64,000 nt of DNA from a virus (IMGVR_UViG_3300043568_002650:64512-128511), one strand, 5' to 3'; positions 3,476 through 17,748 are shown, numbered from the stretch's first letter. Program-made: numbers and translations. Notes: generated by a model not told the origin, from the sequence alone.

Positions 3476-3499
3476 ATATAGAGTTATTATACTAAAAAA

Positions 3500-3516
3500 G
3501 ATAAATAACTAAAATA
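3500..3516 (+). promoter_or_regulatory. late-promoter-like motif GATAAATAACTAAAATA
   Basis: Conserved motif 11 nt before ATG 3527. Resembles the T4 late promoter TATAAATA. The same 17-mer recurs at 11997, 19649 and 47057. Confidence 0.55.
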
Positions 3517-3526
3517 ACTTCTAAAT

Positions 3527-4333
3527 ATGTCGTTTATCAATTGGGGCTCAGAGAGTCAGGAACAAAAGGAGATCCGCAAGAGGATAGAGGAACAGATGCT
3601 ATATGAACAGGCTGTGTATCGTGCATCACTTGCAGCTACGGCAGCCGTTGGAGGCGGGGGCCAAGCTAATAATCTACCTCTATCTGGTGATCTTACCCTA
3701 GTCTTTACTGACTTTGTGACAGTTGATCTCATCCTAGCTGGTGGATTCGATAGTCTCCCTGACTGGAATACTGCACTTGTAGATTCAGGCACTCCATATA
3801 CCTCAATTATTGTTGATGAGCCGAATTTTACAGTATACTTAAGTGGCGGCTCAGGTATAACCCTGACTCCGCATGCTTTTGATGGAGTGGTTGAAGGGTC
3901 TACTGGCCTAGGCGATGATCTAGTCTCAATTGTAGATACGGGTAGTATTATTGCAGCTAGCGGTTGGGCTTTTTATTATTGTGATCTTCTTCAAACGTGT
4001 ATCCTGCCTGCCGTGACTACTCTTGGTGATAATGATTTTGAGGGTTGTACTCTACTTAATGAGCTTCTCTTGCCTGTAGTAACTGAGGTTGGATTCCAAT
4101 GTTTCTATGGTGCATTTAATACTGCCACATCACCAATCACATTTGACCTGCCGTCGTGTACCTCATTTGGCACCCAAGCATTTACTTCGTACGACGGTGA
4201 ATACTATAGTGGAACTACTGAAGTAGACACACCAACAGTATTGACAGCTACCTTTGCTAGTACCGTGATTGCAAACCCTGATGTAGTATTATTCCTTGCA
4301 CAAAATACTGGTGTAGCGGCAGTGTATGTTTAA
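3527..4333 (+). CDS. structural/fibre-like protein with the conserved N-terminal module MSFINWGSESQEQKEIRKR...
   Basis: 268-aa ORF. Its N-terminal 45 aa are shared with ORFs at 12024 and 15898. Gly/Thr/Ser-rich body. Late-type promoter. Confidence 0.55.
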   Translation: MSFINWGSESQEQKEIRKRIEEQMLYEQAVYRASLAATAAVGGGGQANNLPLSGDLTLVFTDFVTVDLILAGGFDSLPDWNTALVDSGTPYTSIIVDEPNFTVYLSGGSGITLTPHAFDGVVEGSTGLGDDLVSIVDTGSIIAASGWAFYYCDLLQTCILPAVTTLGDNDFEGCTLLNELLLPVVTEVGFQCFYGAFNTATSPITFDLPSCTSFGTQAFTSYDGEYYSGTTEVDTPTVLTATFASTVIANPDVVLFLAQNTGVAAVYV

Positions 4334-4796
4334 GCTAGAGGATCACCTATGGAGAGATATATTCTCGGCAGAAGATGAGATCCAATTAGATAGAGCAATA
4401 CCTGACCTTACCCGAAAGTACAGTCGACAAATCTTACGCTATGGGGTTTCAAAGTATCAGAACAATCTTGTCTCAGTCGAGGTACCTCAATACCTGCTAG
4501 ATTTAGCTAGTCGACTTACTCAGTTAGGCATGCTTAAATTTGTTCCACAGGACTATACAATTAATATCTACAAACCAGGTGATTCAATTGGTTATCATAT
4601 TGACCTCGGCGACGACGATACAGTTATCCTAAATCTACTCTGCCCAGTCACCTTTAACCTAAAAAAGGGTGCAGAACTGGTCTCCTTTGAGTTTCCGCAA
4701 AGATCTGTTTTTTTGCTGACTGGTGAGTGGAGAAACCTTTGGGAGCACTCGATTGAACCAGTAAAAGACCGCCGATTATCTATTGTTTTTAGATAG
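4326..4796 (+). CDS. 2OG-Fe(II) oxygenase superfamily protein
   Basis: HxD (YHIDLGDD), downstream His (WEHSIEP) and C-terminal RLSIVFR (RxS 2OG-binding) motifs. Confidence 0.5.
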   Translation: MFKLEDHLWRDIFSAEDEIQLDRAIPDLTRKYSRQILRYGVSKYQNNLVSVEVPQYLLDLASRLTQLGMLKFVPQDYTINIYKPGDSIGYHIDLGDDDTVILNLLCPVTFNLKKGAELVSFEFPQRSVFLLTGEWRNLWEHSIEPVKDRRLSIVFR

Positions 4797-4854
4797 TGAT
4801 AGTAATAAATCACCTAAATAATGTAGGACTAGTCTTGACCGTGTCAGCTTCCAT

Positions 4855-4871
4855 GATAAATAATAAAAATA
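4855..4871 (+). promoter_or_regulatory. late-promoter-like motif GATAAATAATAAAAATA
   Basis: 14 nt upstream of ATG 4885. Confidence 0.45.
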
Positions 4872-4884
4872 GAAGAATTATACT

Positions 4885-5829
4885 ATGAACTACCTATTAA
4901 ATTATAGAAAATGGAGATCTATCTATGAGGCAGAAGAGTCGAGTGAAAGCCAAAAATCCCTTGTGTTACTCTCTGGACCCAGTGCGTCAGGTAAGACCTA
5001 CTTTGCAATGAACCGACTAAAGGCAAAACACTGGTATTCTGATCTTACTGCCAAGACAGTGCTGATTGGTACTGATAACTTTAATGACAATACAATAGGT
5101 CCTATCTTTATTAAACTAGTAGAGGATTCAGGTATGCCAGCCCTTGCCAAGATTGCAAGCCAAGTTGACAGTCCTCATATCCTTAAGTTATACGATACTG
5201 AGTTTGCACAGTGGAGCAAAAGCGCAAGTCCAGAGGAGAAGAGCAAATATGAAGAGCTTGAACGTGTTGCGGGATACGATCCAAAAAAGTGCAAGGCAAC
5301 TGTTAGGAAGCAACAGGGAAAGGATGGTGACGGACGTGTTAGTGCCATGGCATGGGCAGCACACCTATTGCCTGCAACTGAAATACTTTTTGATGATATC
5401 GGCGACGCAATCAAGAACTACTATGCTGAAGGAGAGATCAGTGACGTTCTTCTTTTTACTCCGCTAGACTACTACTTAGGTAATATAATTTCTCGTAATG
5501 GGAGCAGTAATAAGGCAGAGAAGATAGACACATCGAATCGAGACGCAGGTATCTATCAGTATTGTGACTGGTATAGAGCAGTCGCTGAACCTGACTTAGA
5601 TGATAAGCAGTATTCTGCTGAGGACATGAAAAGCAAGCTTGAAGCCGCCGGTTACTCAAATTCTGATGAACTTCTTCGACTCTTAGGAGTCACTCCTGAA
5701 CTTGAAGAAGGTTTCTATATTGGATTAAAAGACTGGGTAAAGCCTAATACTATCATTAATTCGCGTGACAAGAGCACCGGACGCGCGCAATCAGTCGATG
5801 ACTTTAATTCTTTCTCAGCTCTTCTATAA
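4885..5829 (+). CDS. P-loop kinase-like protein (Walker A GPSASGKT)
   Basis: LLSGPSASGKTYFAMNRL Walker A near the N-terminus, resembling zeta-toxin/polynucleotide-kinase-type P-loop kinases. N-terminus contains SIYEAEE. Confidence 0.5.
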   Translation: MNYLLNYRKWRSIYEAEESSESQKSLVLLSGPSASGKTYFAMNRLKAKHWYSDLTAKTVLIGTDNFNDNTIGPIFIKLVEDSGMPALAKIASQVDSPHILKLYDTEFAQWSKSASPEEKSKYEELERVAGYDPKKCKATVRKQQGKDGDGRVSAMAWAAHLLPATEILFDDIGDAIKNYYAEGEISDVLLFTPLDYYLGNIISRNGSSNKAEKIDTSNRDAGIYQYCDWYRAVAEPDLDDKQYSAEDMKSKLEAAGYSNSDELLRLLGVTPELEEGFYIGLKDWVKPNTIINSRDKSTGRAQSVDDFNSFSALL

Positions 5830-5849
5830 TAAGTTCTAGATTAGGCTAG

Positions 5850-6038
5850 CTAAAACATTCCATTTGCTTTCCACTCTTTCCAAGTATCGAAGTCCTTGAG
5901 TTTTTCAAGGTCCTCTCTGCTGTAAATCTTATCAGTATTCTCAGCATACCATTGGGCTCCAGCTATCCAGTTCTCAGTCTTGCAGATATTTGGATCTGCT
6001 AAATTTGCTGCAGCACGCTCTATCTCTTCCGTATTCAT
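5850..6038 (-). CDS. small protein carrying the AANLADPNICKTENWIAGAQW module
   Basis: 62-aa ORF. Shares its module with the C-terminus of 2381..3145 at both protein and nucleotide level. Confidence 0.4.
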   Translation of the reverse strand: MNTEEIERAAANLADPNICKTENWIAGAQWYAENTDKIYSREDLEKLKDFDTWKEWKANGMF

Positions 6039-6039
6039 G

Positions 6040-6279
6040 TTATTTGTCTACTCGATAATAAACTGGCTCCTCTACTCTAAGATATTTAGGAGGATCCATC
6101 TTTCCGCCCGCTTCTATCCATGTGACTAAGGTTGCAAGTAGAATAACTGTTGCGATTGATGTGATGTATAGTGAGATCTTAAAAGATCTAGGTGTCATAT
6201 CTCCAAGGGCAGAGATCACTAGTGCAGCGGCGATTGTTGCAGCCGTTGAGAGGACAAGTAAAGTTGTTAAGTATTCCAT
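6040..6279 (-). CDS. small two-TM membrane protein
   Basis: 79-aa ORF with two hydrophobic helices. Confidence 0.4.
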   Translation of the reverse strand: MEYLTTLLVLSTAATIAAALVISALGDMTPRSFKISLYITSIATVILLATLVTWIEAGGKMDPPKYLRVEEPVYYRVDK

Positions 6280-6284
6280 AATCC

Positions 6285-6704
6285 TTATTTTACCTGAATC
6301 ATTTTAATTGTTTTGCAGTTAAGCCACTTAGTTATTGGTGAACCAATAAAGAGCCCGATATAATCTTCAGTACCAAAGGGTTCATCTTGTAGAGTCATTG
6401 TTAGTCCATCAAAGAATGATGCACCAGATGTCCAAATTGATACATGATAGACTGACCCATCAATCACTAGTCTATATTGAGATAGCCCTCCCATAAATTG
6501 AAAGTCATTAAGGTGTTCTACCTTCACCTTACCTCTACGTAGGAGCCGATAGAGTTTCCAGCGGTTCTTCCAATAGTGAGGTACAAAGAACATCTCGTAT
6601 GCTCCCCAAAAAGGTAGGCACATAGTTGGTATCATTAGGATACACGCGATTACTATTCGAAGGGTCGCATTGCCCTCCTTTACAAAGTGTTTAGTCATTT
6701 TCAA
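6285..6704 (-). CDS. membrane protein
   Basis: 139-aa ORF with a hydrophobic segment IVIACILMIPTMCLPFWGAY. Confidence 0.4.
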   Translation of the reverse strand: MKMTKHFVKEGNATLRIVIACILMIPTMCLPFWGAYEMFFVPHYWKNRWKLYRLLRRGKVKVEHLNDFQFMGGLSQYRLVIDGSVYHVSIWTSGASFFDGLTMTLQDEPFGTEDYIGLFIGSPITKWLNCKTIKMIQVK

Positions 6705-6733
6705 ATTCTCCTTTAATCTTATTTAGTGATTTT

Positions 6734-6988
6734 TTACTTTACTTGAATCATCGTAACACTTTCCACTCCACGATAGATAAGAATGTGAACAGTATCATCA
6801 ATAGTTATCTTATATAAACCTTTATAAACTTCTTCAGACAACTTTTCAATCTCTAAACGATTAACGTGATCTGGAGTAGAGCCGTCAAGTTTCTTAACAG
6901 AATTTCCTGGTGACTCTTGTGGAAAACTACATGCCATAAATACTAACGGCAATACTAATAGTAACTTTTTCATATGTTTATTATTCAC
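6734..6988 (-). CDS. small secreted/lipoprotein-like protein
   Basis: Signal peptide MKKLLLVLPLVFMACS with a lipobox-like FMAC. Confidence 0.4.
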   Translation of the reverse strand: MNNKHMKKLLLVLPLVFMACSFPQESPGNSVKKLDGSTPDHVNRLEIEKLSEEVYKGLYKITIDDTVHILIYRGVESVTMIQVK

Positions 6989-7373
6989 CTTTCAGAGTTT
7001 TTAATTGTTCCTCAAGCCTTTTAATTTTAGCTTCATCACTTTCCTTTTTATCCTGATCACGCTTAGCAATATACTTAGCTACCTCATCCGGTGTAGATAA
7101 TCTAAACTCGACTCCATACACTTCTAATTCTTGATGGTCACAGTGCCAATCACATGCAACATAGTTGGCGCCTTTTGAGTTTAGCTCAACTAGTGTAGAG
7201 ATAAGCTCATCGATTTTGACAAGACCTGCTTCTAAATAGAGAGCATCTCCAAATGTCTTAGTGTCTGAGTGGATATCCCAATCTAATCCTAAGTCTTCTT
7301 CTGATCGAGCTACAATGTCTTTGCGCCCAATACTCTTTAAGTTAAAAAATATTTCCTTGCTCATTTGTTCCAA
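6981..7373 (-). CDS. hypothetical protein
   Basis: 130-aa ORF. C-terminus is coiled-coil-like. Confidence 0.4.
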   Translation of the reverse strand: MEQMSKEIFFNLKSIGRKDIVARSEEDLGLDWDIHSDTKTFGDALYLEAGLVKIDELISTLVELNSKGANYVACDWHCDHQELEVYGVEFRLSTPDEVAKYIAKRDQDKKESDEAKIKRLEEQLKTLKGE

Positions 7374-7909
7374 TCTATTTTAGGACAGTACTTATTATAT
7401 TTAGCCTTGATAAATTCAATAATAATGCTCTGCTTCTCTTCGTATGGTACATAGTCAGGGTTGCGGATATTGTCTCCATTCTCGTCCCAAATCCACTCAC
7501 GTTGAGTGTGTCGGCGATTATCTCTTCTCTTTTTATAGAGGTGAAGTATGATAAAAACTATTGAGGAGATGATTGTAATCATCCAAATAAGGATTCCAGT
7601 TCCTTGCCAAATACGAAATGTTGTATTAGGATTGAACCAGCCCCAAAAGAGGTATGTCACTGGAAATATTGCTAGAAAAGCAATAAATACTATTCCCCAA
7701 AGAACAGCTCCTCCAAGTAGACGCAATGGCCAATCATCAGCCTTTTCTTTAGCCATAACTAATGGCAAGGAGATTAGACCTACTGGTGCAAGAAATACCC
7801 ACATGATTACAAGCTTCCAAAAGTATGGACATAGTGTTTGAGGCATATCCTTTGCCATGTAGAACCAGCGATATAACTGAGCTGAGATACTGTTGTGATT
7901 TAATTTCAT
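7361..7909 (-). CDS. multi-pass membrane protein
   Basis: 182-aa ORF with at least four hydrophobic helices. Confidence 0.45.
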   Translation of the reverse strand: MKLNHNSISAQLYRWFYMAKDMPQTLCPYFWKLVIMWVFLAPVGLISLPLVMAKEKADDWPLRLLGGAVLWGIVFIAFLAIFPVTYLFWGWFNPNTTFRIWQGTGILIWMITIISSIVFIILHLYKKRRDNRRHTQREWIWDENGDNIRNPDYVPYEEKQSIIIEFIKAKYNKYCPKIDWNK

Positions 7910-7932
7910 AATTTATGTTTTTAGTTATTATA

Positions 7933-8328
7933 CTACTTTATTCTATTCTTTTCTCGGTCGACCTCAACTTTATTTAAAAAGGCCACGAATTCATGGATAA
8001 TCAGTTCATCACTCATTCCCTGATGTCTAAGCTCCCAGCCCATCACAAATGCATCGTTAATTTCTCGCTCAGTATATCTAAGATCCTTTATGAAATTGTA
8101 TACTTTAGAGTGACTTGGCTTCGCATCCTTATGCTCCTTTGGATAATTCCACTGCTTGCCTTGGCTATCAGTAATATCGAACTCGCCATCAATAAATGCA
8201 TATAACCCATCAATCATAAGAGTTACGCATACTTCACCATATTGATCCTGAATCTCGATCTGATAATTGTTGATTTTTATTGCACTTAAGCAGTCACCTT
8301 CGTAATTAATTAATCCTAGTTTTTTCAT
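7933..8328 (-). CDS. hypothetical protein
   Basis: 131-aa ORF. Confidence 0.4.
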   Translation of the reverse strand: MKKLGLINYEGDCLSAIKINNYQIEIQDQYGEVCVTLMIDGLYAFIDGEFDITDSQGKQWNYPKEHKDAKPSHSKVYNFIKDLRYTEREINDAFVMGWELRHQGMSDELIIHEFVAFLNKVEVDREKNRIK

Positions 8329-8343
8329 TTCTATTTAGTTATT

Positions 8344-8676
8344 TTATCGTAATTTAATTTCATCAATTGTTGGACTGTTGATCTTTGTAGTAGTCGGTGA
8401 TTTAGTGTTAACCACTTCTGCAATCTTAACGAATTGTAATACCTTTGCCTCCTCAACATTTGGATTTCCACGAAGACTCTCGATATAGTTAATATGTTTC
8501 GACTTGTCTCCACTTTCATGTATCTCAATCTTCCAGTCAAGCCCAACTCTCTTTACTAGAGAAACATAAGTTGCATCAGATGGTGGAACAATTGTTTGAA
8601 CTGGTGATGCACATACTCCGTATGCAGTGTTATAATAACTTGAGTTAAGTGCGCTGCCTCCTATAATTATACTCAT
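8344..8676 (-). CDS. hypothetical protein
   Basis: 110-aa ORF, preferred over the overlapping 8331..8546 frame. Confidence 0.35.
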   Translation of the reverse strand: MSIIIGGSALNSSYYNTAYGVCASPVQTIVPPSDATYVSLVKRVGLDWKIEIHESGDKSKHINYIESLRGNPNVEEAKVLQFVKIAEVVNTKSPTTTKINSPTIDEIKLR

Positions 8677-9323
8677 TGCTCTAGTGAATTTGGATAATAT
8701 AATAGTGTTGGATTCTTCTTCTGTATGTCAATATTAGGATACTCCTTCTTAAATGTCATCACATCGAATTTCTTAGTAATTAGGTGGTGACCATTTCTAG
8801 TTGGAATGATCGCCTCGATCTTTGGTCCAACTTCGTGGCCAATTGGCATTCCTACTTCATCAAATTTGACTTTAGTAAAAGGCATACATTTATATTCAAT
8901 AAATGCCATCATCAATGGGCTAGCTTCATGCTGATCATCGACATCAATGATCCACCGCTTCTCTTGAGTCTTGACTTGGCCTACGACTGAATCGAAGAGT
9001 CCTTTTTGATTCTGAACTCCATTTCGGATACGTTCAGCAAGGGCAACCATCATGTTCAGTGAGACTTCCGACTGGTTCTGTTTTTGCACATGAATATAGG
9101 CTCGAGCCTTAAACACTTCGCAGAGCTGCTTGACCTCATCCCAACGTCTCTCTAGGTGATCCATATTCTCGATACAATACGTTTTAATGGTTCTGACTGA
9201 CTGATGATTGTCGCGTTCCCCTTCAGGCTGGTCCTTCTTACGTTTAAACACATAGAGCATATAAAAGTCTCCTGGTTCTGAGAAGTTAAGTAAGGGTCTT
9301 ATGAGTTCCAAGTTGTCTATCAT
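8673..9323 (-). CDS. hypothetical protein
   Basis: 216-aa ORF. TAGTATAAT sits 6 nt before the ATG, so leaderless geometry. Confidence 0.45.
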   Translation of the reverse strand: MIDNLELIRPLLNFSEPGDFYMLYVFKRKKDQPEGERDNHQSVRTIKTYCIENMDHLERRWDEVKQLCEVFKARAYIHVQKQNQSEVSLNMMVALAERIRNGVQNQKGLFDSVVGQVKTQEKRWIIDVDDQHEASPLMMAFIEYKCMPFTKVKFDEVGMPIGHEVGPKIEAIIPTRNGHHLITKKFDVMTFKKEYPNIDIQKKNPTLLYYPNSLEQ

Positions 9324-9360
9324 AGTTATATTATACTAAATAATTAGATAAATAAAAAAT

Positions 9361-9909
9361 ATGAAGTACATTAAAATTTACGAAGATTATACACCAACGA
9401 GTAAAGTCATAGTTGAAGGGTCGTATTCACCAAAGGCTGGAGACTATGATGGTATGCACTCATTCCAATCTAGAAAAAAAGATGGATTTGGAGGTAAGAT
9501 GAATACTAAAGTAAATGAAGCACTTCTAAAATTCTATAAGGAGACTCATAAAAATCCTACAATTACTAATATTGAAATTAAGATGGATGACTCCTCTTGG
9601 AAAGTAACATGGAAGGTGACTATCGAAGAGAGCCGAGACGGCAAAGCATGGATAGGATTGACTAGTCGCGGTGGAGCTGGTAAAAAGGATGGACTTACTG
9701 GATCAGTTGAACGAGCTAAACGTCAAATTGATCGAAAGAAGAAAGATCTTGCCTCAGAATTTAGTGACTCTGCACTTGAAACCAAAGAGGTAAAGGATTT
9801 TGGTTGGCAAGGTAAGGGTGCATATATTCGTCAGATCTTTGTAATATACACTAATCCCGCAAAATACCCTGCAATAAAACCGGATACCGATAATAAACAG
9901 ATTGCTTAA
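9361..9909 (+). CDS. hypothetical basic protein (N-terminus MKYIKIYEDY)
   Basis: 182-aa ORF. AGATAAATAAAAAAT lies immediately upstream. Confidence 0.45.
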   Translation: MKYIKIYEDYTPTSKVIVEGSYSPKAGDYDGMHSFQSRKKDGFGGKMNTKVNEALLKFYKETHKNPTITNIEIKMDDSSWKVTWKVTIEESRDGKAWIGLTSRGGAGKKDGLTGSVERAKRQIDRKKKDLASEFSDSALETKEVKDFGWQGKGAYIRQIFVIYTNPAKYPAIKPDTDNKQIA

Positions 9910-10251
9910 TTACTCTACTATCTTTTCAACATATGTACAGGTCTCACCAACTTCAAATCCTTTTTCAATAAGTAGAGGCAAGGACGCAGGTTTACACCAT
10001 GCATAAATCAAATAGCTTTTAAACTTTAGTTGAACATAGTCCCAACGAGCATCCCAAAGCTTTCTAAATATTCCTTTACGTCGATGATCCTCATGGACCC
10101 ATGCATCTAGGAATTTAATCTTTGTGTTCTCTTCACGCTCCATGTAAATATGGCCGACTATTTCTCCATTGACCATCGCAATCCAGGTCTCAAGTTGTTG
10201 TGCATTGCTTTTTAGATGCACAATCTTAATGTCATCAATTATTGTTGTCAT
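9910..10251 (-). CDS. possible GNAT-family acetyltransferase (small)
   Basis: HEDHRRKGIFRKLWD resembles GNAT motif A. Weak call. Confidence 0.3.
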   Translation of the reverse strand: MTTIIDDIKIVHLKSNAQQLETWIAMVNGEIVGHIYMEREENTKIKFLDAWVHEDHRRKGIFRKLWDARWDYVQLKFKSYLIYAWCKPASLPLLIEKGFEVGETCTYVEKIVE

Positions 10252-10465
10252 ATTCTATAATTAGTGCGGATTCAAGTCCTTCAAAGAGACCAACATTTAC
10301 AAAGAGTCTAGGATGAGAGAACTCATCAACTGATTGAAATTCGACAGTTTGTCCCTCTTTAATTGAGTCAGTTACCTTAATAATAGGAATAACTTTGAAT
10401 CTACCATACGAAGTCAGGTATTCAACCATCAATTCATTATCCTTATTTACGATCCTTCCTATCAT
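10235..10465 (-). CDS. hypothetical protein
   Basis: 76-aa ORF. Confidence 0.3.
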   Translation of the reverse strand: MIGRIVNKDNELMVEYLTSYGRFKVIPIIKVTDSIKEGQTVEFQSVDEFSHPRLFVNVGLFEGLESALIIEYDNNN

Positions 10466-10754
10466 CGTCTCCGATTTTTTGCAAAAAAGTTTTTATCTTC
10501 TCATCCACCTCGTTCATCATCTCACCATCACAAGAATTCTTCCACTTTCTAATATTACCGTCTTCCCTTTCAGATTCAAGGTAGATTTTACCGCGTTCAA
10601 CCAGGCCATTTGAGTAGCCATATCCACCAAACCCATGCAGGGCAAGTACCTCCTTTAAGAGTTCAGCGGCTTCGTCACCATCCATTAAAAACTGTTTGCG
10701 CACCGCTCGACCCAATTCCAGGTCGTTCGGATACTTTTTGATTAGGTCTTTCAT
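10443..10754 (-). CDS. hypothetical protein
   Basis: 103-aa ORF. Confidence 0.35.
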   Translation of the reverse strand: MKDLIKKYPNDLELGRAVRKQFLMDGDEAAELLKEVLALHGFGGYGYSNGLVERGKIYLESEREDGNIRKWKNSCDGEMMNEVDEKIKTFLQKIGDDDRKDRK

Positions 10755-10756
10755 AG

Positions 10757-10963
10757 TTAAGAGTTATTTGACATACCGATTACTGCAATTACCGCAGTCA
10801 CAACAATCGTGATAATAGCGAGTGTAATATTTGCTTCCCATGTCACAATGGCTAAGATTGCTGGAAAAAGAAGGTTAACATCACACTTGTCATGATTATA
10901 GACATTGTCAAAGAGACTGAGCAACATTCCGATTAGACTTAAGATCGCGATTGTAATTACCAT
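10757..10963 (-). CDS. small membrane protein
   Basis: 68 aa, two hydrophobic helices. Confidence 0.3.
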   Translation of the reverse strand: MVITIAILSLIGMLLSLFDNVYNHDKCDVNLLFPAILAIVTWEANITLAIITIVVTAVIAVIGMSNNS

Positions 10964-11006
10964 AGTATTTTAGTTTTAATTATTATACTTTAATTCTTAA
11001 TTAGTT

Positions 11007-11957
11007 TTAACTTCCAAAACCCATCTTTTTATTTTCTTTTACTTTAGGTGCCTTCTTAAGTTCTTCAAGAGAAGCCATAGTCTCTTCAAATGTTCTGCCC
11101 ATTACGATAACTGAGACTACTACTTCCTTTAGATGAGAGAGTGACATGCCTTCTGTTCGCTTTACCCATTCATTAAGGTCAATCTTTGCCAAGTCATCCT
11201 CATTTAATTTATTGGTGATATACGCTTGTCTAATTTCAGCATTAGGTAACTCAATCTTATATCGGCGATCAAATCTAGATGGTCGATTAGTCACACGTTC
11301 CTGTAATTTTTCTGGATAGTTAGTAGTCGCAATGTATACTACTCCCTCAATCTGTTTGACTCCATCTAGGATATTTAAGAGTTGAGACGTAGAGTATCTG
11401 TCCTCACCAGCAAGAGCATCTATATCTTCTAGGATAACAACAAGTGGTCGAGTAGGTTCAATTTTACGAAATGTTGGAATAAACTCAATAAAGTAGTCGA
11501 TATCATTTTGCGACTTGATATTGATTACGATACCATTAAGCTCCATTAGCATGTTAGCTAGGATCTGGATAATACCTGATTTACCACAGCCCGGTTCTCC
11601 ATACATTAGGATACCTCGTTTATGTATAAAGTTATAAGTACGATAGACCTCTGCTCTGGTCCAAAAGTTTTCAATATCTTTCAGAATATCAATAATCTCT
11701 GGTGAAGGCAAGTGATATAGCTCATCGGTCTTGAAGGGTTGCTTCTTTAAGGTATGTGAACCGATCGAGTTATTGTAATCTATTTCATATACTCCAGCTG
11801 GTACCTGGTCAACTGTGATATATGCTGGTGCAAACTCTTCGTTTTTTAAGTTGCTCCAGCAACAGGGCACAGTAAGATCCTGTGATTCAGGTTCACCATT
11901 AAGTTCTTCTCGAATACGGTCGATTTCGTGCACGATATTTCTTTTCTTCATGTGCAT
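11007..11957 (-). CDS. AAA+ ATPase (classical AAA family)
   Basis: Walker A ILMYGEPGCGKSG, Walker B VVILEDIDAL, second region of homology ATTNYPEKLQERVTNRPSRFDRRYKIELP. TAGTATAAT abuts the start, so the likely start is the second Met (leaderless). Confidence 0.8.
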   Translation of the reverse strand: MHMKKRNIVHEIDRIREELNGEPESQDLTVPCCWSNLKNEEFAPAYITVDQVPAGVYEIDYNNSIGSHTLKKQPFKTDELYHLPSPEIIDILKDIENFWTRAEVYRTYNFIHKRGILMYGEPGCGKSGIIQILANMLMELNGIVINIKSQNDIDYFIEFIPTFRKIEPTRPLVVILEDIDALAGEDRYSTSQLLNILDGVKQIEGVVYIATTNYPEKLQERVTNRPSRFDRRYKIELPNAEIRQAYITNKLNEDDLAKIDLNEWVKRTEGMSLSHLKEVVVSVIVMGRTFEETMASLEELKKAPKVKENKKMGFGS

Positions 11958-11996
11958 ATTATACTATATAGAGATCTATTTTTAAAATTAGAGTAG

Positions 11997-12013
11997 GATA
12001 AATAACTAAAATA
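11997..12013 (+). promoter_or_regulatory. late-promoter-like motif GATAAATAACTAAAATA
   Basis: Identical to the motif at 3500. 11 nt before ATG 12024. Confidence 0.55.
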
Positions 12014-12023
12014 ACTTTTAAAT

Positions 12024-14807
12024 ATGTCATTTATTAACTGGGGATCAGAGAGTCCAGAACAAAAGGAAATCCGACGCAGGATGGAAGAACAGATGATGTT
12101 TGAACAAATGTCATACAGTGCAGCAGTTGCTGCAGCTGCAGCTGCCGGAAGCGGTTCACTGCCTCGAACAAAACAGGGTCAAACTTCATCGTATACCTAT
12201 GAATCTGAAACTGGCCAATTCTATATTGGGATAATGGATTTTGAAAAAGGGTCACTTCCTGCAGTATTTAATACTGGTCTTAATACTAGCGAAGATTGGT
12301 ATTATGATGATAATAACTATGCTGGAACGTATGTTGTTCAAGATAGTGGTTATCTAATGACCTTTAGTAATAATAGTTCAGCAGATAGAGTATTCTTCTT
12401 CTTTAGTGCAGGAGGTGCACTTATCGAAAAATTAGAGCTCACAACAAACGACACTGACGTATTTGGTGCAAATGGTAATTTTATTGTAGTATGTGATTGG
12501 GATGCATACAAAATATGGTGGTTCGATGGATTAGAAGTAAAGACTTCAGACTTATCAGAAAACACGAATAGTTGGGACTATATAGGTGCAAATGTATCAG
12601 GATTTTTTATAACTTCGTATACTACTGAAGGAGCTACTGATTTCTACAACGTCTTCTTTATTGATGGATCTGGATTAAATCAAATACTTGAAAGAGATGT
12701 AACTAGTCCGACTAATTCATATTCACTAGAGGTATATGAAAACGCAAATATCTTTAGACTATTTAATTATAATGATACCCCTGGTGAATATACCCATATT
12801 TATTATTATGATACTGCTGGAGTTGAACTAGCCGATCTTGATGTGTCCGCTGGAAATTATGTTAGCAAATTTATAGATGTTTTCGGTGCAGGTAAACACG
12901 TCGATACTTTCTACAATGCTACTGAGTACTGTATCTGTTATTACGATGAGGCAGTCGGAGACTTATTAACAACTACTCATGATAGAGTAGACTATCCTAA
13001 TTTTATAGTTACAGGTCAATATAGAAATAATGGTAGTCAATTCAATACCTTGACTGAGAATGGATTAATTACTTTCTCAAGCGACGGTCTTGGGTCGATT
13101 AAAGATTTACAAAATGTGACCCATTGTGATTTTATTCGCTTACATGACGGGCTGGCTGACTTAGATCAAATAGTTCCATTCGCTGATAATGAACCAAAGG
13201 CAATCAATTGGAATATTATTAAAGTCGCCGACTCAATATTCGTGCCAAATTGCCCAGACACTGATGCAGTTTCACCTCAACTAGCATACTTAACTTTTAC
13301 TAGCATAGGTACGAACTTTAATACTCTATTAATTTCATTTGATGATTACGATTATTTTAATACTGACATATTAGGTAATCGATATCTAACTGATGCATGG
13401 CTAGACACTGGGCTGGAACCTGGAACCTATTTTATAACAAATAAAACAGGTGCTGATTATTTAGAGTACCAATATGACATTCGAGATTCAAATTATCTTG
13501 ATGATGAAGGAGATGTAGTAGCATGGAGAAACTCAAGTGATACTACTTTTCAATCATATTATTTAACAACAGAAGATCCTATACCATTTGAGGCAAGTAT
13601 ATTACCTCCATTTGGGAGAATCCAGACAACTTCAACATATCGTCAAGAGGATAAGCTGTATCCTGGAAATCTCTTGATCCAGAGCGGAGAAGGTAGTCGA
13701 TTGTATCTATTTAATGATATTGGTGAAGATAATATAGTATATGGCGGAGATGACATGTATGATGTCGGAAACAAATTAAATACTAATCTTATAGTTGAGA
13801 TAGCATATACGCATACTCAAATGGTGGACACTCCTGAGGATGATGATATAGAAGCTTTACCGAGTATGTTTGAAATGGACGGAGAAGTAGTAGACGGTAT
13901 TACACAATTTGGAGCAGGATCGGAATACTTTACTAACCTATATCCTGGACTATTTACAATGGTTGCTAAGGGCGTAGATATCACTGAATTTTTTATAGAT
14001 GGCAGCACTGGACTTGACAGTAATGGTTATAATACACTTTATTCATATGAAGTAACAGTAGGCGGTCATGATTATACTGCATTCCTAAAGACTACTACTG
14101 GTGGAGGTAGTGACATGGACGGCGAGTCTGATCCAACTATTAATCAAATCATAATTGTAAATGCACAAGATGTAGCACTAATTCAAGAGATCGATGAAAC
14201 CGTTGATACTAATAATGATTATCATAAGATACTTGGACTAGATACTGCTGGTGTAACTGAAGTACACTACTTATTAATGGCAACATATAATAAGTCAGTT
14301 CAGCACGGATTTACTGAAACAGATTTTACTAATGTGGTTAACCAGTATTTAGATATCGTTGATGGTTTATCAATATCGGCTACCTTAACTGCACTAAATG
14401 AAGATTATTCTCTTATCACTGACCAAATTGAAGACACTGAATCATATACTTTAACTTTAGTTAAAGCAGACGGAACCGTACTCGAAAAGGATTCAGTATT
14501 CTATAATGAAGGATTGGATTTAGGACCGACTATGTGTGCCTGTGCATACAATAACGCAGATGGTTTTGCATGTGTCGACGTATACGATATTGACTTAGAG
14601 TTAATTTCAACTTATGTATCTAATGAAACTAATGTAAATACCGTTAGAATAATTGATAATCGATTATATATCATAACTAACTATTTTGATGAAAATGAGG
14701 ATGAACATACTGTTATGGCAATAATGCGAGGAACTTCATTTATCAAGAAAGAATACATACACAATAATGACTGGCGAACATCCAACGATTATGCAGCTTG
14801 GTACTAA
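12024..14807 (+). CDS. large virion structural / tail-fibre-like protein with the conserved N-terminal MSFINWGSES module
   Basis: 927-aa Asn/Asp/Tyr/Thr-rich ORF. N-terminal 45 aa are paralogous to 3527 and 15898. Late-type promoter. Confidence 0.6.
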   Translation: MSFINWGSESPEQKEIRRRMEEQMMFEQMSYSAAVAAAAAAGSGSLPRTKQGQTSSYTYESETGQFYIGIMDFEKGSLPAVFNTGLNTSEDWYYDDNNYAGTYVVQDSGYLMTFSNNSSADRVFFFFSAGGALIEKLELTTNDTDVFGANGNFIVVCDWDAYKIWWFDGLEVKTSDLSENTNSWDYIGANVSGFFITSYTTEGATDFYNVFFIDGSGLNQILERDVTSPTNSYSLEVYENANIFRLFNYNDTPGEYTHIYYYDTAGVELADLDVSAGNYVSKFIDVFGAGKHVDTFYNATEYCICYYDEAVGDLLTTTHDRVDYPNFIVTGQYRNNGSQFNTLTENGLITFSSDGLGSIKDLQNVTHCDFIRLHDGLADLDQIVPFADNEPKAINWNIIKVADSIFVPNCPDTDAVSPQLAYLTFTSIGTNFNTLLISFDDYDYFNTDILGNRYLTDAWLDTGLEPGTYFITNKTGADYLEYQYDIRDSNYLDDEGDVVAWRNSSDTTFQSYYLTTEDPIPFEASILPPFGRIQTTSTYRQEDKLYPGNLLIQSGEGSRLYLFNDIGEDNIVYGGDDMYDVGNKLNTNLIVEIAYTHTQMVDTPEDDDIEALPSMFEMDGEVVDGITQFGAGSEYFTNLYPGLFTMVAKGVDITEFFIDGSTGLDSNGYNTLYSYEVTVGGHDYTAFLKTTTGGGSDMDGESDPTINQIIIVNAQDVALIQEIDETVDTNNDYHKILGLDTAGVTEVHYLLMATYNKSVQHGFTETDFTNVVNQYLDIVDGLSISATLTALNEDYSLITDQIEDTESYTLTLVKADGTVLEKDSVFYNEGLDLGPTMCACAYNNADGFACVDVYDIDLELISTYVSNETNVNTVRIIDNRLYIITNYFDENEDEHTVMAIMRGTSFIKKEYIHNNDWRTSNDYAAWY

Positions 14808-14826
14808 TTAAAAAAATTAAACACTT

Positions 14827-15105
14827 ATGAAATATTTTATTGACGTTACAATAATAGATTTAAAAACAAATAATGTTGCTCAGAAAATGAATTACGATGT
14901 TAACTGTGCAGAAGATGCAGTAGTAACAATCGAGTCTGTGAAATCTGAATTATCACAATGGGTTACTATTCCTCGGGATACGGTCTTGCTAAATGAAAAG
15001 GCTAAGATTAAGGGAAGTACGCAAGAAGACTCAGCAGTAGTTAGTGATAAAACTCGAGTTTATTATACTGCACATCTTCAACAGAAGGTAAAAGATCAAA
15101 AATAA
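14827..15105 (+). CDS. hypothetical protein
   Basis: 92-aa ORF immediately after the 927-aa gene. Confidence 0.35.
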   Translation: MKYFIDVTIIDLKTNNVAQKMNYDVNCAEDAVVTIESVKSELSQWVTIPRDTVLLNEKAKIKGSTQEDSAVVSDKTRVYYTAHLQQKVKDQK

Positions 15106-15846
15106 TTAACTGACGATCGGGATAATTACCCCTTCAACAAACCTTTGCATATCCTCGATACTAATAGTGTCGAGGGTATCTCGTTTAGTATGGCAATTAA
15201 ATAACATGTCGTAGTCAAGATAAGATTCTCCCCACTTTACTGGACTTGTGCCCTCATCTAAAATAGGTAAAGGGTTAATCACAACTGAGTCGATTCCGTT
15301 CCTCCTAAAGATTACTGAGTCATTGAATGGCGTACTAACTATCGGACAACTGAAGATCCCTCTAATATGATCCTGTAATTTACCAGGATAGTCTCCAATA
15401 AAGAAGGTGGAACCTCCGCGACCAGTCAGCTCAAGATTAAGGATCCAGCTAATTTCACCAAACTCTCCAGCATTAATCTGATCCGATAAATATTGCGAAC
15501 CTAATCCACCAACCTCTTCTCCATCTAATAGGACAACTGTAATTTCAGGTTTAAGTAACTTGGTTGCAATCGCATTAATTACTGAAGCTGAATTATCGTT
15601 TGCATTATCTATATCGGGATTTACGATATCATGATGAGCAGTGATAATCCTATTTGAACTTCCTCGAAGAACAATATTAAACCCACTATTCTCGCGATCT
15701 ACTTCGAATTCATGCAGTTCGGGGTTTAGTCCAAGGTCGTCAGCCAGGTCCATTAAGAATCTTACTCGAGGAGATCTTTCGAGTCCGTTAGAGTAGATCG
15801 AACCTGAGTTACGAGCTTTACACAAATCATATATCTTGTCATACAT
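15106..15846 (-). CDS. M42/M28-like zinc metallopeptidase domain protein (truncated relative)
   Basis: AHHD, DNSAS and DGEEVGGLGS motifs in the spacing typical of M20/M28/M42 peptidases. TAGTATAAT sits 6 nt before the ATG. Confidence 0.4.
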   Translation of the reverse strand: MYDKIYDLCKARNSGSIYSNGLERSPRVRFLMDLADDLGLNPELHEFEVDRENSGFNIVLRGSSNRIITAHHDIVNPDIDNANDNSASVINAIATKLLKPEITVVLLDGEEVGGLGSQYLSDQINAGEFGEISWILNLELTGRGGSTFFIGDYPGKLQDHIRGIFSCPIVSTPFNDSVIFRRNGIDSVVINPLPILDEGTSPVKWGESYLDYDMLFNCHTKRDTLDTISIEDMQRFVEGVIIPIVS

Positions 15847-15871
15847 GATTATATTATACTATATTCATTAA

Positions 15872-15888
15872 TATAAATAACTAAAATA
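15872..15888 (+). promoter_or_regulatory. late promoter-like TATAAATAACTAAAATA (exact T4-type TATAAATA)
   Basis: 9 nt before ATG 15898. Confidence 0.55.
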
Positions 15889-15897
15889 GTATAGAGT

Positions 15898-16098
15898 ATG
15901 TCATTTATTAATTGGGGAGAAGAATCACAAGAACAATTAGCTGCTCGTAAAAGAATGGAAGAGATTATGATGTTTGAACAAGCTGCGTTTAATGCAGCAA
16001 CTGCAGCGGCTGCAGCCGCTGGATCAGGTGGATCAGGTGGAATTAAATCTAATAAATACGTCGTTAATGGATATGTTGAGGATGGATATTTTGAATAA
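15898..16098 (+). CDS. stand-alone copy of the conserved N-terminal module (MSFINWGEESQEQ...) with a Gly-Ser linker
   Basis: 66-aa ORF consisting almost entirely of the shared module. Followed 23 nt later by a fibre-like gene, so possibly a split or coupled gene pair. Confidence 0.45.
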   Translation: MSFINWGEESQEQLAARKRMEEIMMFEQAAFNAATAAAAAAGSGGSGGIKSNKYVVNGYVEDGYFE

Positions 16099-17426: not shown

Positions 17427-17511
17427 ATAAATAAAAATGGACAGTTCTATAGTATTCTACATGGACCAGTTACGAAGATTTGAATAACCAGTGATATATT
17501 GACCTTTGTAA

Positions 17512-17748
17512 CTACGTGATTCTGATTTTACTTAGTAAGTGGCTTATTACTTGAGATTCATGGTCCCAACCCAATGCTGACCCTTCACTATTATGGGTAT
17601 ACGACCAAGTCATTGGATTCTTACCATGATAATTTACTACAACTACTTCAAAGCCTTGCTCACGCAGGGCTTTTATGTTATTACGATATTCCTCTTGTGA
17701 GGCTTGTAGTTTAGCAAGTTTTTTAGGACCAATATAGTTATTTCGCAT
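17512..17748 (-). CDS. hypothetical protein (possibly the 3' part of a frameshifted gene)
   Basis: 78-aa ORF overlapping 17738..18025 by 11 nt in another frame. Confidence 0.3.
   Translation of the reverse strand: MRNNYIGPKKLAKLQASQEEYRNNIKALREQGFEVVVVNYHGKNPMTWSYTHNSEGSALGWDHESQVISHLLSKIRIT

What the first reader, a model, noticed from the sequence alone, without database searches (positions are those of the whole stretch)
3497..16098. Three paralogous structural genes share a 45-aa N-terminal module and a duplicated promoter/5' coding region, pointing to a modular fibre/receptor-binding family
ORFs at 3527, 12024 and 15898 all begin MSFINWG[SE]ES.EQ.EIR+R.EEQM..EQ..Y.A..AA.AA.
The nucleotide sequence from the late-promoter motif through about 110 nt of coding is about 85% identical between 3497-3610 and 11997-12110.
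The module is fused to a 220-aa Gly/Thr-rich body, to a 880-aa Asn/Tyr-rich body, or stands alone (66 aa) immediately upstream of a 434-aa beta-helix-repeat fibre gene.
This looks like a conserved virion-attachment adaptor domain with swappable distal domains, in the way tail fibres or decoration proteins evolve. The dispersed repeats provide recombination substrates for host-range switching.
Basis: seen in the sequence. Interest (0 to 1): 0.6.

Follow-up and report, generated by a model that had tools for sequence, protein, structure and literature searches.

The report
Shared docking tag on phage adhesins
Three late genes of a roughly 250-kb uncultured T4-like phage start with the same 45-residue tag (a short peptide, one helix and a floppy linker), which related phages fuse to many unrelated binding domains; it is most likely a short docking handle that hangs interchangeable adhesins on the virus particle, a new example of a known design rather than a new principle.

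Summary
ORFs 3527-4333 (268 aa), 12024-14807 (927 aa) and 15898-16098 (66 aa) share a 45-aa N-terminus with 25 invariant residues, and the window holds no fourth copy.

The "duplicated promoter" is not a duplication. ATAAATAACTAAAATA followed by about 10 nt and ATG precedes many genes here and looks like a T4-type late promoter plus leader.

The module defines an unannotated family:
- 131 clusters among 1.84 billion representative proteins, always at residues 1 to ~50
- at least 14 unrelated bodies, with 2-4 copies per partial relative contig
- recognisable bodies are binding domains only (LRR, BspA-LRR, PKD, ConA-like lectin, beta-propellers)

Homology with relatives breaks exactly at the end of the module, so cassette exchange is directly seen.

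The 66-aa protein is the conserved core member: helix, Ala/Gly linker and an acidic-aromatic tail (YVxNGYVEDGYFE). Its gene is typically followed by a hypervariable fibre gene with its own conserved N-terminus (G.KL[ST]I.EMD.N..YL).

Best model (confidence about 0.5): a virion-docking tag that tethers adhesins, either fused directly or through the 66-aa adaptor. Main rival (0.2): a long capsid-targeting propeptide cut at the invariant (L/M)-(F/Y)-E27|Q28. Virion location is unproven. I rate it a new variant of a known kind, of moderate interest.

The parts
3501..3516 (+). Late-promoter/leader motif ATAAATAACTAAAATA, 10 nt before the ATG of the 268-aa gene
   Evidence: Exact match. The same motif occurs before many other genes in the window. 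That it acts as a T4-type late promoter (NATAAATA) is inferred.
3527..3661 (+). MSFINWG module, copy 1 (codons 1-45): N-terminal peptide, amphipathic helix, Ala/Gly linker
   Evidence: Alignment A3, 25/45 invariant; HMM hit E = 2.3e-22.
3527..4333 (+). 268-aa module protein with a BspA-type LRR body (LRR_5 at residues 148-221)
   Evidence: ORF; Pfam PF13306, E = 4e-07, above the gathering score; ortholog in L125.
11998..12013 (+). Late-promoter/leader motif, exact copy, 10 nt before the ATG of the 927-aa gene
12024..12158 (+). MSFINWG module, copy 2 (codons 1-45)
   Evidence: Homology with L001 ends at 12144, the end of the module.
12024..14807 (+). 927-aa module protein. The body is predicted as beta-propeller-like domains plus a shuffled 'DGGDDMYDGGN' domain (residues ~574-779).
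   Evidence: AF2 model, pLDDT 68.8: helix 11-40, all-beta region 54-320 with pLDDT 80-90. Foldseek finds propeller hits with low TM-scores. The domain is shared with ~303-aa family members. Orthologs lie on ~250-kb contigs.
12145..15124 (+). Exchangeable cassette 1: the 927-aa body plus the 92-aa ORF (14827-15105). In L001 it is replaced by a PKD/LRR/Laminin_G_3-type body.
   Evidence: blastn breakpoints; gene tables; translation.
15873..15888 (+). Late-promoter/leader motif, exact copy (here preceded by T, giving TATAAATA), 9 nt before the ATG of the 66-aa gene
15898..16098 (+). 66-aa stand-alone member: module, Gly/Ser linker and the conserved acidic-aromatic tail NKYVVNGYVEDGYFE. It is the syntenic core member in relatives.
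   Evidence: 24 close homologs of 42-70 aa. The tail is conserved even in distant relatives with other N-termini. AF2 predicts a single helix 11-41 with the rest unstructured, pLDDT 60.6. Synteny next to the M28 peptidase gene.
16122..17426 (+). 434-aa fibre-type partner gene. Its conserved N-terminus MGITTRDFGPNAKGSKLSIEEMDENFNYL is followed by a variable Asn-rich repeat body.
   Evidence: The N-terminus is shared with L004, L149, L151, L140, L153 and L155 proteins that have different bodies. Residues 43-170 match the phiCT453A tail fiber protein at 36.6% identity, E = 4e-10, and that gene lies directly after the baseplate J and XkdU-like genes.
16217..17524 (+). Exchangeable cassette 2: the body of the fibre-type gene. 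It is replaced by a different 339-aa-type body in L004 and the gene is absent in L001.
   Evidence: blastn breakpoints: homology with L004 ends at 16216 (codon 31) and resumes at 17525; homology with L001 ends at 16099 and resumes at 17544.
15106..15846 (-). M28-family peptidase gene, transcribed divergently from the 66-aa gene. It is the conserved flank of both cassettes.
   Evidence: Pfam PF04389, E = 1.7e-10; conserved position in L001-L007 and L149. Any functional link to the module is unknown.
11007..11957 (-). AAA ATPase gene, the conserved upstream flank of cassette 1
   Evidence: Pfam PF00004, E = 5e-17; synteny.

Best explanation
The shared 45 residues are a protein-level docking tag. 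It consists of an invariant N-terminal peptide (MSFINWG.E), one amphipathic helix of about 30 residues that ends in the invariant (L/M)(F/Y)EQA, and a flexible Ala/Gly/Ser linker.

The tag anchors whatever follows it to one common site on the phage particle, most likely the tail, baseplate or fibre apparatus. Cargo is attached in two ways:

1. Covalently. The tag is fused to interchangeable ligand-binding bodies. In the window these are a BspA-type LRR (268 aa) and beta-propellers (927 aa). In relatives they include PKD+LRR+ConA-like lectin and at least 10 others.

2. Non-covalently. The 66-aa stand-alone protein carries the same tag but ends in a conserved acidic-aromatic tail (YVxNGYVEDGYFE). 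I infer that this tail grips the conserved, basic-then-acidic N-terminus (TR..KG.KL[ST]I.EMD.N..YL) of the hypervariable fibre encoded just downstream. That would make the small protein a mini-adaptor.

All three genes are driven by the phage's general late promoter and leader. New specificities arise when everything downstream of the tag, or downstream of the fibre N-terminus, is replaced.

Shown: the module, its strict N-terminal position, the family's size, the body diversity, the exchange breakpoints, the small-gene/fibre-gene pairing, and conservation at the protein level.

Inferred: virion attachment, the attachment site, and the contact between the tail and the fibre N-terminus.
For: - Module and paralogy.
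- Strictly N-terminal: the module starts at the initiator Met in 106/107 local hits and lies at residues 1 to ~50 in essentially all of the 131 clusters found by the exhaustive search.
- Body diversity: at least 14 unrelated body families plus the stand-alone form, with 2-4 copies per partial contig.
- Body type: the recognisable bodies are exclusively binding/adhesion folds, namely LRR_5, LRR_4/8, PKD, Laminin_G_3 and propellers. No enzymes were found.
- Tether: the 20 residues after the conserved EQ are a median 60% A+G+S.
- Structure: AF2 predicts only a helix at 11-41, at low confidence, as expected for a segment that folds on a partner.
- Protein-level constraint: 11-15 of the 45 codons differ synonymously between paralogs.
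- Exchange breakpoints fall at the end of the module (12144) and at the end of the fibre N-terminus (16216).
- Gene pairing: 7/10 evaluable distinct small genes are followed within 16-133 nt by a gene with the fibre-type N-terminus. All 6 such N-termini found among 3421 scanned ORFs lie within 1.3 kb of a small gene, including distant relatives whose small protein has a different N-terminus but the same tail.
- Partner identity: part of the partner resembles a tail fibre that sits behind baseplate genes.
- Promoter: the late-type motif also precedes the head-closure/portal operon.
- Documented precedent: anchor, conserved-peptide and adaptor RBP systems, including docking peptides of 7-70 residues and the K1-5 gp37 adaptor (PMC6872550).
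Against: - There is no direct evidence that any of these proteins is in the virion. No cultured or proteomically characterised phage carries the module (tblastn of 50,697 phage genomes found nothing).
- The module genes sit among non-structural genes, away from the portal/neck cluster.
- In 3 of 10 cases the small gene has no fibre gene immediately downstream.
- An invariant (L/M/I)-(F/Y)-E27|Q28 fits the T4 prohead-protease logo, so the tag could be removed rather than retained.
- The module-fused bodies are not fibre-like (no beta-helix or coiled-coil shaft). They share almost nothing with the fibre-type bodies: one ~60-residue domain only.
- The 927-aa model is of moderate quality and its fold matches have low TM-scores.
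Confidence: 0.5

Rival explanations
1. Extended capsid-targeting propeptide. Residues 1-27 would direct the proteins into the prohead core, as the CTS of T4 internal proteins does. The prohead protease would then cut after the invariant E27. The mature, diverse bodies, plus a 39-residue acidic peptide derived from the 66-aa protein, would be packaged with the DNA and ejected into the host.
For: - T4-like phages are the documented case of highly diverse proteins that share only an N-terminal targeting leader (PMC3012670; PMC9026906).
- (L/M/I)-(F/Y)-E-Q-A is invariant in 52/52 members and fits the (L/I)-x-E cleavage logo. Conservation decays right after it.
- The module starts with SFIN, resembling the F[IV]NE leaders of other ORFs in this genome.
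- The genes are late, dispersed and hypervariable, like IP loci.
Against: - The conserved segment (28 residues plus linker) is longer than the 10-19-residue T4 propeptides.
- This genome already has a separate leader class that is far more CTS-like, for example TYHQFINE against T4 TYQEFIAE. It ends in I/V-N-E at residues ~11-15 and occurs in 7/105 ORFs against a 0.8% background.
- The bodies are extracellular-type adhesion folds (PKD, LRR, lectin, propeller), not known ejected effectors.
- All 38 complete bodies are strongly acidic (pI <= 5; net charge -104 for the 927-aa protein), whereas T-even IPs are described as basic. This point is weak because the control class is mixed.
- It does not explain the conserved pairing of the small gene with a fibre gene.
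Confidence: 0.2
2. Assembly helper or oligomerisation helix, not a virion anchor. The small protein would be a chaperone for the downstream fibre, comparable in size to T4 gp57A. The shared helix would merely drive homo- or hetero-oligomerisation (for example trimerisation) of the paralogs, which might act in the infected cell or on its surface rather than on the particle.
For: - The small gene is tightly linked to a fibre gene.
- The module is essentially one amphipathic helix.
- The genes are not in the structural cluster.
- A 92-aa ORF travels with the 927-aa body, as specific fibre chaperones do.
Against: - Known fibre chaperone genes usually lie downstream of their fibre gene, whereas this one lies upstream (my own knowledge of T4 gp38 and of Mu, P2 and lambda Tfa).
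- The hydrophobic positions are spaced i, i+4, i+8 rather than as a clear heptad (read from the sequence).
- A chaperone role does not explain the invariant extreme N-terminal peptide MSFINWG, nor why the same tag is placed on at least 14 unrelated adhesin bodies behind a flexible tether.
- There is no PHROG or Pfam similarity to gp57A or any chaperone family.
Confidence: 0.15
3. Secretion or membrane signal. The N-terminus would be a cleaved signal peptide or membrane anchor that exports the adhesin-like bodies.
For: The bodies are of extracellular type. In the window's three copies the Ala-rich stretch (AAVAAAAAAG) looks mildly hydrophobic.
Against: - None of 56 members reaches a Kyte-Doolittle mean of 1.6 over 19 residues (median 0.54).
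- Residues 1-15 are net negative (median -2).
- In diverged members the Ala stretch is replaced by polar or basic sequence such as VRMNSARNSAQFGG.
Confidence: 0.02
4. Nucleotide-level element. The repeat would be a recent duplication or gene-conversion tract, or a regulatory or recombination sequence, and the protein similarity would be a by-product.
For: The promoter-proximal 30 nt are 90% identical between 3527 and 12024, and the motif-plus-leader is shared.
Against: - The upstream identity is explained by a genome-wide motif.
- Within the coding part, 11-15 of the 45 codons differ synonymously, and the longest exact run in coding sequence is 15 nt or less.
- The amino-acid module is conserved across 131 clusters with divergent DNA.
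Confidence: 0.03

Closest known systems
Anchor / conserved-peptide / adaptor receptor-binding-protein systems (T7 gp17 vs K1F gp17; K1-5/K1E/SP6 adaptor gp37 with 7- and 11-residue docking peptides; G7C gp66/gp63.1; multi-RBP Klebsiella phages including jumbo PhiK64-1/RaK2), as reviewed in PMC6872550
   Same: A conserved N-terminal segment with horizontally exchanged distal domains. Short N-terminal docking peptides. Fused-anchor and separate-adaptor versions coexist. One genome carries several differently specific proteins that use the same attachment logic. The exchange breakpoint lies at the end of the anchor.
   Different: - No sequence similarity to the T7 gp17 N-domain or to T4gp10-like domains (no Pfam or PHROG hit).
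- The anchor is only a peptide plus one helix plus a flexible linker.
- The fused bodies are LRR, PKD, lectin and propeller binders rather than beta-helix depolymerases.
- The genes are dispersed among non-structural genes of a ~250-kb T4-like phage.
- The adaptor is only 62-70 aa.
- Attachment is unproven.
T4 capsid targeting sequence (CTS) of internal proteins IPI-III/Alt (PMC9026906, PMC3012670)
   Same: The same phage lineage (T4-like). Late genes. Highly diverse proteins that share only an N-terminal leader. A conserved hydrophobic-x-E motif that could be a prohead-protease site.
   Different: - 45 residues (28 conserved) against 10-19.
- A flexible linker follows instead of immediate cleavage.
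- The bodies are acidic adhesion folds rather than basic anti-restriction proteins.
- A separate, much more CTS-like leader class (F[IV]NE) exists in the same genome.
- The small member is paired with a fibre gene.
T4 fibritin (Wac) N-terminal virion-binding domain with variable distal part in T4-type phages (my own knowledge of Letarov et al. 2005; not checked here)
   Same: In T4-like phages, a conserved N-terminal segment of about 50 residues attaches a protein to the particle while the distal end is replaced between phages.
   Different: Fibritin is a single-copy gene with a long segmented coiled coil and lies in the neck/tail gene cluster. Here there are several paralogs per genome, no coiled-coil shaft, and no detectable homology.
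Capsid decoration/display proteins Hoc and Soc of T4 (my own knowledge)
   Same: Non-essential surface proteins that display Ig-like or other binding domains. A small (~9 kDa) protein tolerates fusions. This could be seen as a natural counterpart of phage display.
   Different: No sequence similarity. Hoc binds through its C-terminal domain. Nothing links the module to the capsid rather than the tail, and the pairing with a fibre gene points to the tail.

Membership tests
Anchor/conserved-peptide/adaptor RBP systems (T7/K1F, K1-5 gp37, G7C, Klebsiella phages) | Conserved N-terminal segment combined with unrelated C-terminal domains in related phages | tested here: met
   At least 14 body families sit behind the same module. 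At the same syntenic slot, the window and L005 carry the 927-aa type while L001 carries a PKD/LRR/lectin type.
Anchor/conserved-peptide/adaptor RBP systems (T7/K1F, K1-5 gp37, G7C, Klebsiella phages) | Exchange breakpoints coincide with the end of the N-terminal segment | tested here: met
   Homology ends at 12144 (codon 40) and at 16216 (codon 31 of the fibre gene).
Anchor/conserved-peptide/adaptor RBP systems (T7/K1F, K1-5 gp37, G7C, Klebsiella phages) | Sequence homology to a known anchor (T7 gp17 N-domain) or branching domain (T4gp10-like) | tested here: not met
   The module and the 66-aa protein have no relevant Pfam or PHROG hit. The only match is a sub-threshold, irrelevant K_channel_TID hit. 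PMC6872550 notes that anchors of different phage groups share no similarity, so homology is not strictly required.
Anchor/conserved-peptide/adaptor RBP systems (T7/K1F, K1-5 gp37, G7C, Klebsiella phages) | Genes lie within or interrupt the structural (tail) gene module | tested here: not met
   The neighbours are a 2OG oxygenase, an AAA ATPase and an M28 peptidase. The portal, head-closure and adaptor-like genes are at 50-56 kb.
Anchor/conserved-peptide/adaptor RBP systems (T7/K1F, K1-5 gp37, G7C, Klebsiella phages) | Distal part is a fibre or spike (beta-helix, depolymerase or fibre fold) | tested here: inconclusive
   The fused bodies are LRR, PKD, lectin and propeller folds. Only the partner gene downstream of the small ORF resembles a tail fibre.
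Anchor/conserved-peptide/adaptor RBP systems (T7/K1F, K1-5 gp37, G7C, Klebsiella phages) | Physical attachment of the N-terminus to the virion or to an adaptor | not testable with these tools
   This needs virion proteomics, cryo-EM or binding assays. No multimer prediction was available.
T4 capsid targeting sequence / internal proteins | Short (10-19 residue) N-terminal propeptide | tested here: not met
   The conserved segment is 28 residues plus a 15-20 residue linker. The criterion comes from PMC9026906.
T4 capsid targeting sequence / internal proteins | (L/I)-x-E prohead-protease site at the end of the leader | tested here: inconclusive
   (L/M/I)-(F/Y)-E27 followed by Q-A is invariant in 52/52 members, so the sequence is compatible. 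Whether it is cleaved cannot be tested here.
T4 capsid targeting sequence / internal proteins | Resemblance to the CTS MKTYQEFIAE (targeting residues 4 and 7) | tested here: not met
   MSFINWGSE shares only a loose aromatic spacing. A different leader class in the same window (for example MKRNIKTYHQFINE at 50289) matches far better.
T4 capsid targeting sequence / internal proteins | Basic, DNA-compatible mature proteins | tested here: not met
   All 38 complete bodies have pI <= 5.03. Caveat: a third of all window ORFs are also acidic, and the CTS-like class is mixed.
Sec/Tat/lipoprotein signal peptides | Positively charged n-region and hydrophobic h-region | tested here: not met
   Residues 1-15 have a median net charge of -2. 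None of 56 members has a 19-residue window with KD >= 1.6.
T4 fibritin (Wac) / Hoc / Soc | Detectable homology to the family profile | tested here: not met
   None of the three proteins has a PHROG or Pfam hit to these families.

The most novel reading that the evidence does not exclude
The ~250-kb T4-like phages of this clade run a natural 'phage display' system. One 45-residue tag (peptide, helix and tether), derived from a 64-aa adaptor protein, would let a single particle carry a changeable mixture of unrelated adhesins (LRR, PKD, lectin, propeller) as well as a separately docked hypervariable fibre. Several paralogs would compete for the same docking site, giving mosaic virions. If so, this would be the shortest self-sufficient virion-docking handle described for a myovirus, and it would be directly usable for engineering.
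Probability: 0.25. Interest if true: 0.65.

Novelty: new variant of a known kind. Interest (0 to 1): 0.45.

Why it matters
If the tag is a docking handle, it shows how large aquatic T4-like phages diversify what they bind. They do not remodel a fibre. They hang ready-made binding domains on a minimal common anchor, both by fusion and through a 64-aa adaptor.

It would also give a portable tag of about 45 residues, and a tail/fibre-N-terminus pair, for attaching cargo to phage particles.

The family has no Pfam or PHROG model and is invisible to current annotation. All members are labelled 'hypothetical', so describing it would allow RBP and adhesin candidates to be flagged in metagenomic jumbo-phage genomes.

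If the rival is right instead, it would be a second, longer capsid-targeting leader coexisting with a classical CTS-like one in a single phage. That would also be new.

Tried and rejected
- **DNA search of known phages.** megablast of 3400-17500 against 50,697 phage genomes found no match. tblastn of the module and of a diverged small protein against the same collection found nothing, even at E <= 10. No characterised phage can be used as a reference.
- **Family libraries.** Pfam and PHROGs give nothing relevant for the module, the 66-aa, 927-aa or 434-aa proteins. PDB sequence searches with the 927- and 434-aa proteins found nothing.
- **Generic signal scans.** The sigma-70 promoter and intrinsic terminator scans of 3300-17700 do not exceed shuffled expectation, so I did not use them.
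- **Context of distant small proteins.** For P0129 and P0119 the contigs are shorter than 1.2 kb and uninformative.
- **Charge as a discriminator.** I tested body charge as a way to tell external from head-internal location and downgraded it, because the control class is mixed.
- **Shared bodies.** I tested whether the fibre-type and module-type N-termini share bodies. Only one ~60-residue domain is shared, so the two classes are largely distinct.
- **Read-through or frameshift.** I considered a fusion of the 66-aa ORF to the 434-aa ORF and rejected it. The A-rich run lies after the stop codon (seen in the L004 intergenic sequence), the window's ORFs are 23 nt apart in different frames, and relatives L001-L003 lack the downstream gene altogether.
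- **Chance pattern hits.** A soil family, MSFINWGLFEVPGVNLD..., was picked up by the DNA pattern and is an unrelated chance hit.

Full report
**1. What is there**

The window comes from a distant T4-like phage.
- It has a gp20-type portal at 52276-53994(-) (Pfam Portal_T4, E = 3e-61), a family B DNA polymerase fragment, a primase and a UvsW-like helicase.
- Its portal is closest, at only 30-38% identity, to uncultured huge phages and Lak megaphages.
- Orthologs of its genes lie on contigs of about 250 kb.
- No nucleotide-level relative exists among 50,697 sequenced phages.

Their first 45 residues align without gaps, with 25 invariant positions. A motif scan and a family HMM find no further copy in the window.

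**2. The nucleotide claim**

Anchored on the ATG, positions -30..+84 of the 3527 and 12024 genes are 82.5% identical, and identity drops to background on both sides.

The upstream part is not a locus-specific duplication.
- The 16-mer ATAAATAACTAAAATA, followed by about 10 nt and ATG, is also exact before the ORFs at 19674 and 47084.
- It occurs with 1-3 mismatches before at least seven other genes, including the operon that holds the head-closure and portal genes.
- In total there are 20 matches against 4.7 expected, and 0 of 100 shuffles reach that number.
- It contains the ATAAATA core of T4-type late promoters. That last point rests on my own knowledge.

Within the 45 codons, 11-15 differ synonymously between paralogs, and the longest exact run (21 nt) lies in the generic motif. 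The copies are therefore old and are held together by selection on the peptide. Recent conversion does not explain them, and today they are poor substrates for homologous recombination.

**3. The family**

- A profile of the module first recovered only 42-70-aa stand-alone proteins.
- DNA-pattern scans of the viral and metagenome collections and an exhaustive profile search of 1.84 billion representative proteins then showed 131 clusters at E <= 1e-3.
- Total lengths run from 42 to 1118 aa, and the module lies at residues 1 to ~50 in essentially all of them.
- In the fetched loci it starts at the initiator Met in 106 of 107 cases.
- Nearly every true family member is preceded by the same late motif or a variant of it.
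- The bodies fall into at least 14 mutually unrelated families.
- Partial relative contigs carry 2-4 copies, each with a different body.

Where a body can be recognised, it is a binding fold:
- BspA-type LRR_5, in the window's 268-aa protein and in L050
- LRR_4/LRR_8, PKD and Laminin_G_3 (ConA-like lectin)
- for the 927-aa protein, a moderate AF2 model (pLDDT 68.8) with propeller-like beta domains, which finds DDB1, sortilin and LRP6 propellers at low TM-scores

The bodies are themselves shuffled. Residues ~574-779 of the 927-aa protein make up the whole body of the ~303-aa members. None of the bodies scanned showed an enzyme domain.

**4. Anatomy of the module**

- **Invariant peptide:** MSFINWG.E.
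- **Helix:** predicted at residues 11-41 in both models, at low confidence. It ends in the invariant (L/M/I)(F/Y)-E-Q-A.
- **Linker:** about 20 residues, a median 60% Ala+Gly+Ser.
- **Not a signal peptide:** there is no hydrophobic core in any of 56 members, and the N-terminus is net negative.

**5. Cassette exchange is directly visible**

The window is syntenic with L001-L007 and L149. The shared order is:
- AAA ATPase (-)
- a module gene (+)
- a 92-aa ORF (+), in some relatives only
- M28 peptidase (-)
- the small module gene (+)
- an optional fibre-type gene (+)

followed by conserved genes.

Against L001, DNA homology runs through codon 40 of the 927-aa gene (to 12144), breaks, and resumes at 15125. 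In L001 a 542-aa PKD/LRR/lectin-type protein with the same module occupies the slot.

Against L004, homology runs through codon 31 of the 434-aa gene (to 16216) and resumes at 17525. L001 lacks that gene altogether.

**6. The small protein and its partner**

The 66-aa ORF is the typical member, and it is syntenic in the close relatives examined (L001-L007, L149). It ends in the tail NKYVVNGYVEDGYFE. More distant homologs have different N-termini but keep the helix, the Ala/Gly/Ser linker and above all the tail, N.YVEN.YI[DE][DN]YFE.

The gene downstream of it carries its own conserved N-terminus, M..(I/V)TR...KG.KL[ST]I.EMD.N..YL, in front of unrelated bodies of 186 to 1076 aa.
- Of 10 evaluable distinct small genes, 7 are followed by such a gene within 16-133 nt.
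- All 6 ORFs with this N-terminus found among 3421 scanned ORFs lie within 1.3 kb of a small gene.
- Residues 43-170 of the window's 434-aa protein match the annotated tail fibre of Clostridium phage phiCT453A (36.6% identity, E = 4e-10). That gene sits directly behind the baseplate J and XkdU-like genes.

The small protein is therefore tied to a fibre.

**7. Interpretation**

The best-supported reading (about 0.5) is a docking tag that tethers binding domains to one site on the particle. Cargo is attached either by fusion or through the 66-aa adaptor, whose acidic-aromatic tail is inferred to hold the fibre's N-terminus. This mirrors the documented contrast between T7 gp17 (anchor fused to the fibre) and the K1-5 gp37 adaptor with short docking peptides (PMC6872550).

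The main rival (about 0.2) is a long capsid-targeting propeptide. T4-like phages are the classic case of diverse proteins that share only an N-terminal leader (PMC3012670, PMC9026906), and the invariant hydrophobic-x-E27 fits the prohead-protease logo.

Against the rival:
- The segment is longer than the 10-19-residue CTS.
- The same window has a separate and much more CTS-like leader class, F[IV]NE, for example TYHQFINE against T4 TYQEFIAE. It occurs in 7/105 ORFs against a 0.8% background.
- The bodies are adhesion folds and uniformly acidic. The acidity is weak evidence.
- The fibre pairing is left unexplained.

A chaperone or oligomerisation role (0.15), a signal peptide (0.02) and a nucleotide-level element (0.03) are less likely.

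**8. Verdict**

Modularity and cassette exchange are shown. Virion attachment is plausible but unproven. The 'duplicated promoter' and 'recombination substrate' points are not supported.
- The principle, a conserved N-terminal anchor with swappable distal domains, is well known for phage receptor-binding proteins.
- This particular module, its minimal architecture, its use on non-fibre adhesin folds in several paralogs per genome, and the 64-aa adaptor/fibre gene pair have no Pfam or PHROG model and no counterpart in the sequenced phage genomes searched.
- I rate it a new variant of a known kind, interest about 0.45.

Noticed in passing
window 1014, 2122(-), 19936, 28101, 50289, 61316 (strict); looser at 418, 4885, 9361, 19568(-), 47084, 60372: A second shared N-terminal leader class: aromatic-x-x-F-[IV]-N-E within the first ~15 residues (for example MKRNIKTYHQFINE), closely resembling the T4 capsid targeting sequence MKTYQEFIAE and ending in an I/V-x-E protease-type site. 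It occurs in 7/105 ORF N-termini against 0.8% of internal windows, and several of these ORFs have the late motif upstream. The phage may encode a large set of head-internal, ejected proteins.
   Followed up: partly
window, all ORF starts: No Shine-Dalgarno enrichment: SD-like 4-mers occur at -18..-4 in 12% of 91 ORFs against 14% of random 15-mers, and the leaders are 50% A. Together with the portal's affinity to Lak and huge phages, this hints at a Bacteroidota-type host.
   Followed up: partly
window 53991-54731 (-): An HNH homing endonuclease gene (phrog_655, E = 4e-37) sits immediately upstream of, and overlaps, the portal gene. The gp4-like head-closure gene is at 55362-55862(-) and a weak head-tail adaptor hit is at 50739-51473.
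   Followed up: no
window 57406-58842 (-): The family B DNA polymerase ORF (478 aa) matches only the C-terminal half of polymerase profiles (phrog_262 positions 500-840), which suggests a split polymerase gene. ARAGORN calls a tRNA-Pyl(CTA) at 58208-58296(+) inside this ORF on the opposite strand, probably a false positive.
   Followed up: no
window 14827-15105 (+): A 92-aa ORF always accompanies the 927-aa-type body in relatives (L004, L005, L007, L149) and is absent where the slot holds the LRR/lectin body (L001). It is part of the exchanged cassette and may be a body-specific helper.
   Followed up: partly
window 13743-14360 (residues ~574-779 of the 927-aa protein); L096, L030, L027, L058: An unannotated domain (…INDGGDDMYDGGN…IPYTHTQ…YFTNMYPGLF…) forms the entire body of ~303-aa module proteins and is embedded in the 927-aa protein. 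It has no Pfam match.
   Followed up: partly
window 4326-4796 (+): A 2OG-Fe(II) oxygenase gene (PF13532, E = 1.4e-10) overlaps the stop of the 268-aa module gene by 8 nt, so it is probably co-transcribed with it from the late motif.
   Followed up: no
L147 776-1012 and 1035-1175; L007 2-2038; L153 2096-2770: L147 has two small tail-type paralogs in tandem. A ~60-85-residue 'GTGYxxGDxxTI' domain is inserted in the 927-type protein of L007 and also occurs in a fibre-type protein (L153) and in a module-fused protein (P0057). It is the only body element shared by the two N-terminal classes.
   Followed up: partly
L151 2-1921: Upstream of a distant small-protein/fibre pair lies a protein of more than 639 aa full of G-x-W-x-x-G-x-W/F repeats (…GRWFGGIWHSGNWISGDWYSGQWY…), another likely virion fibre or baseplate component.
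   Followed up: no
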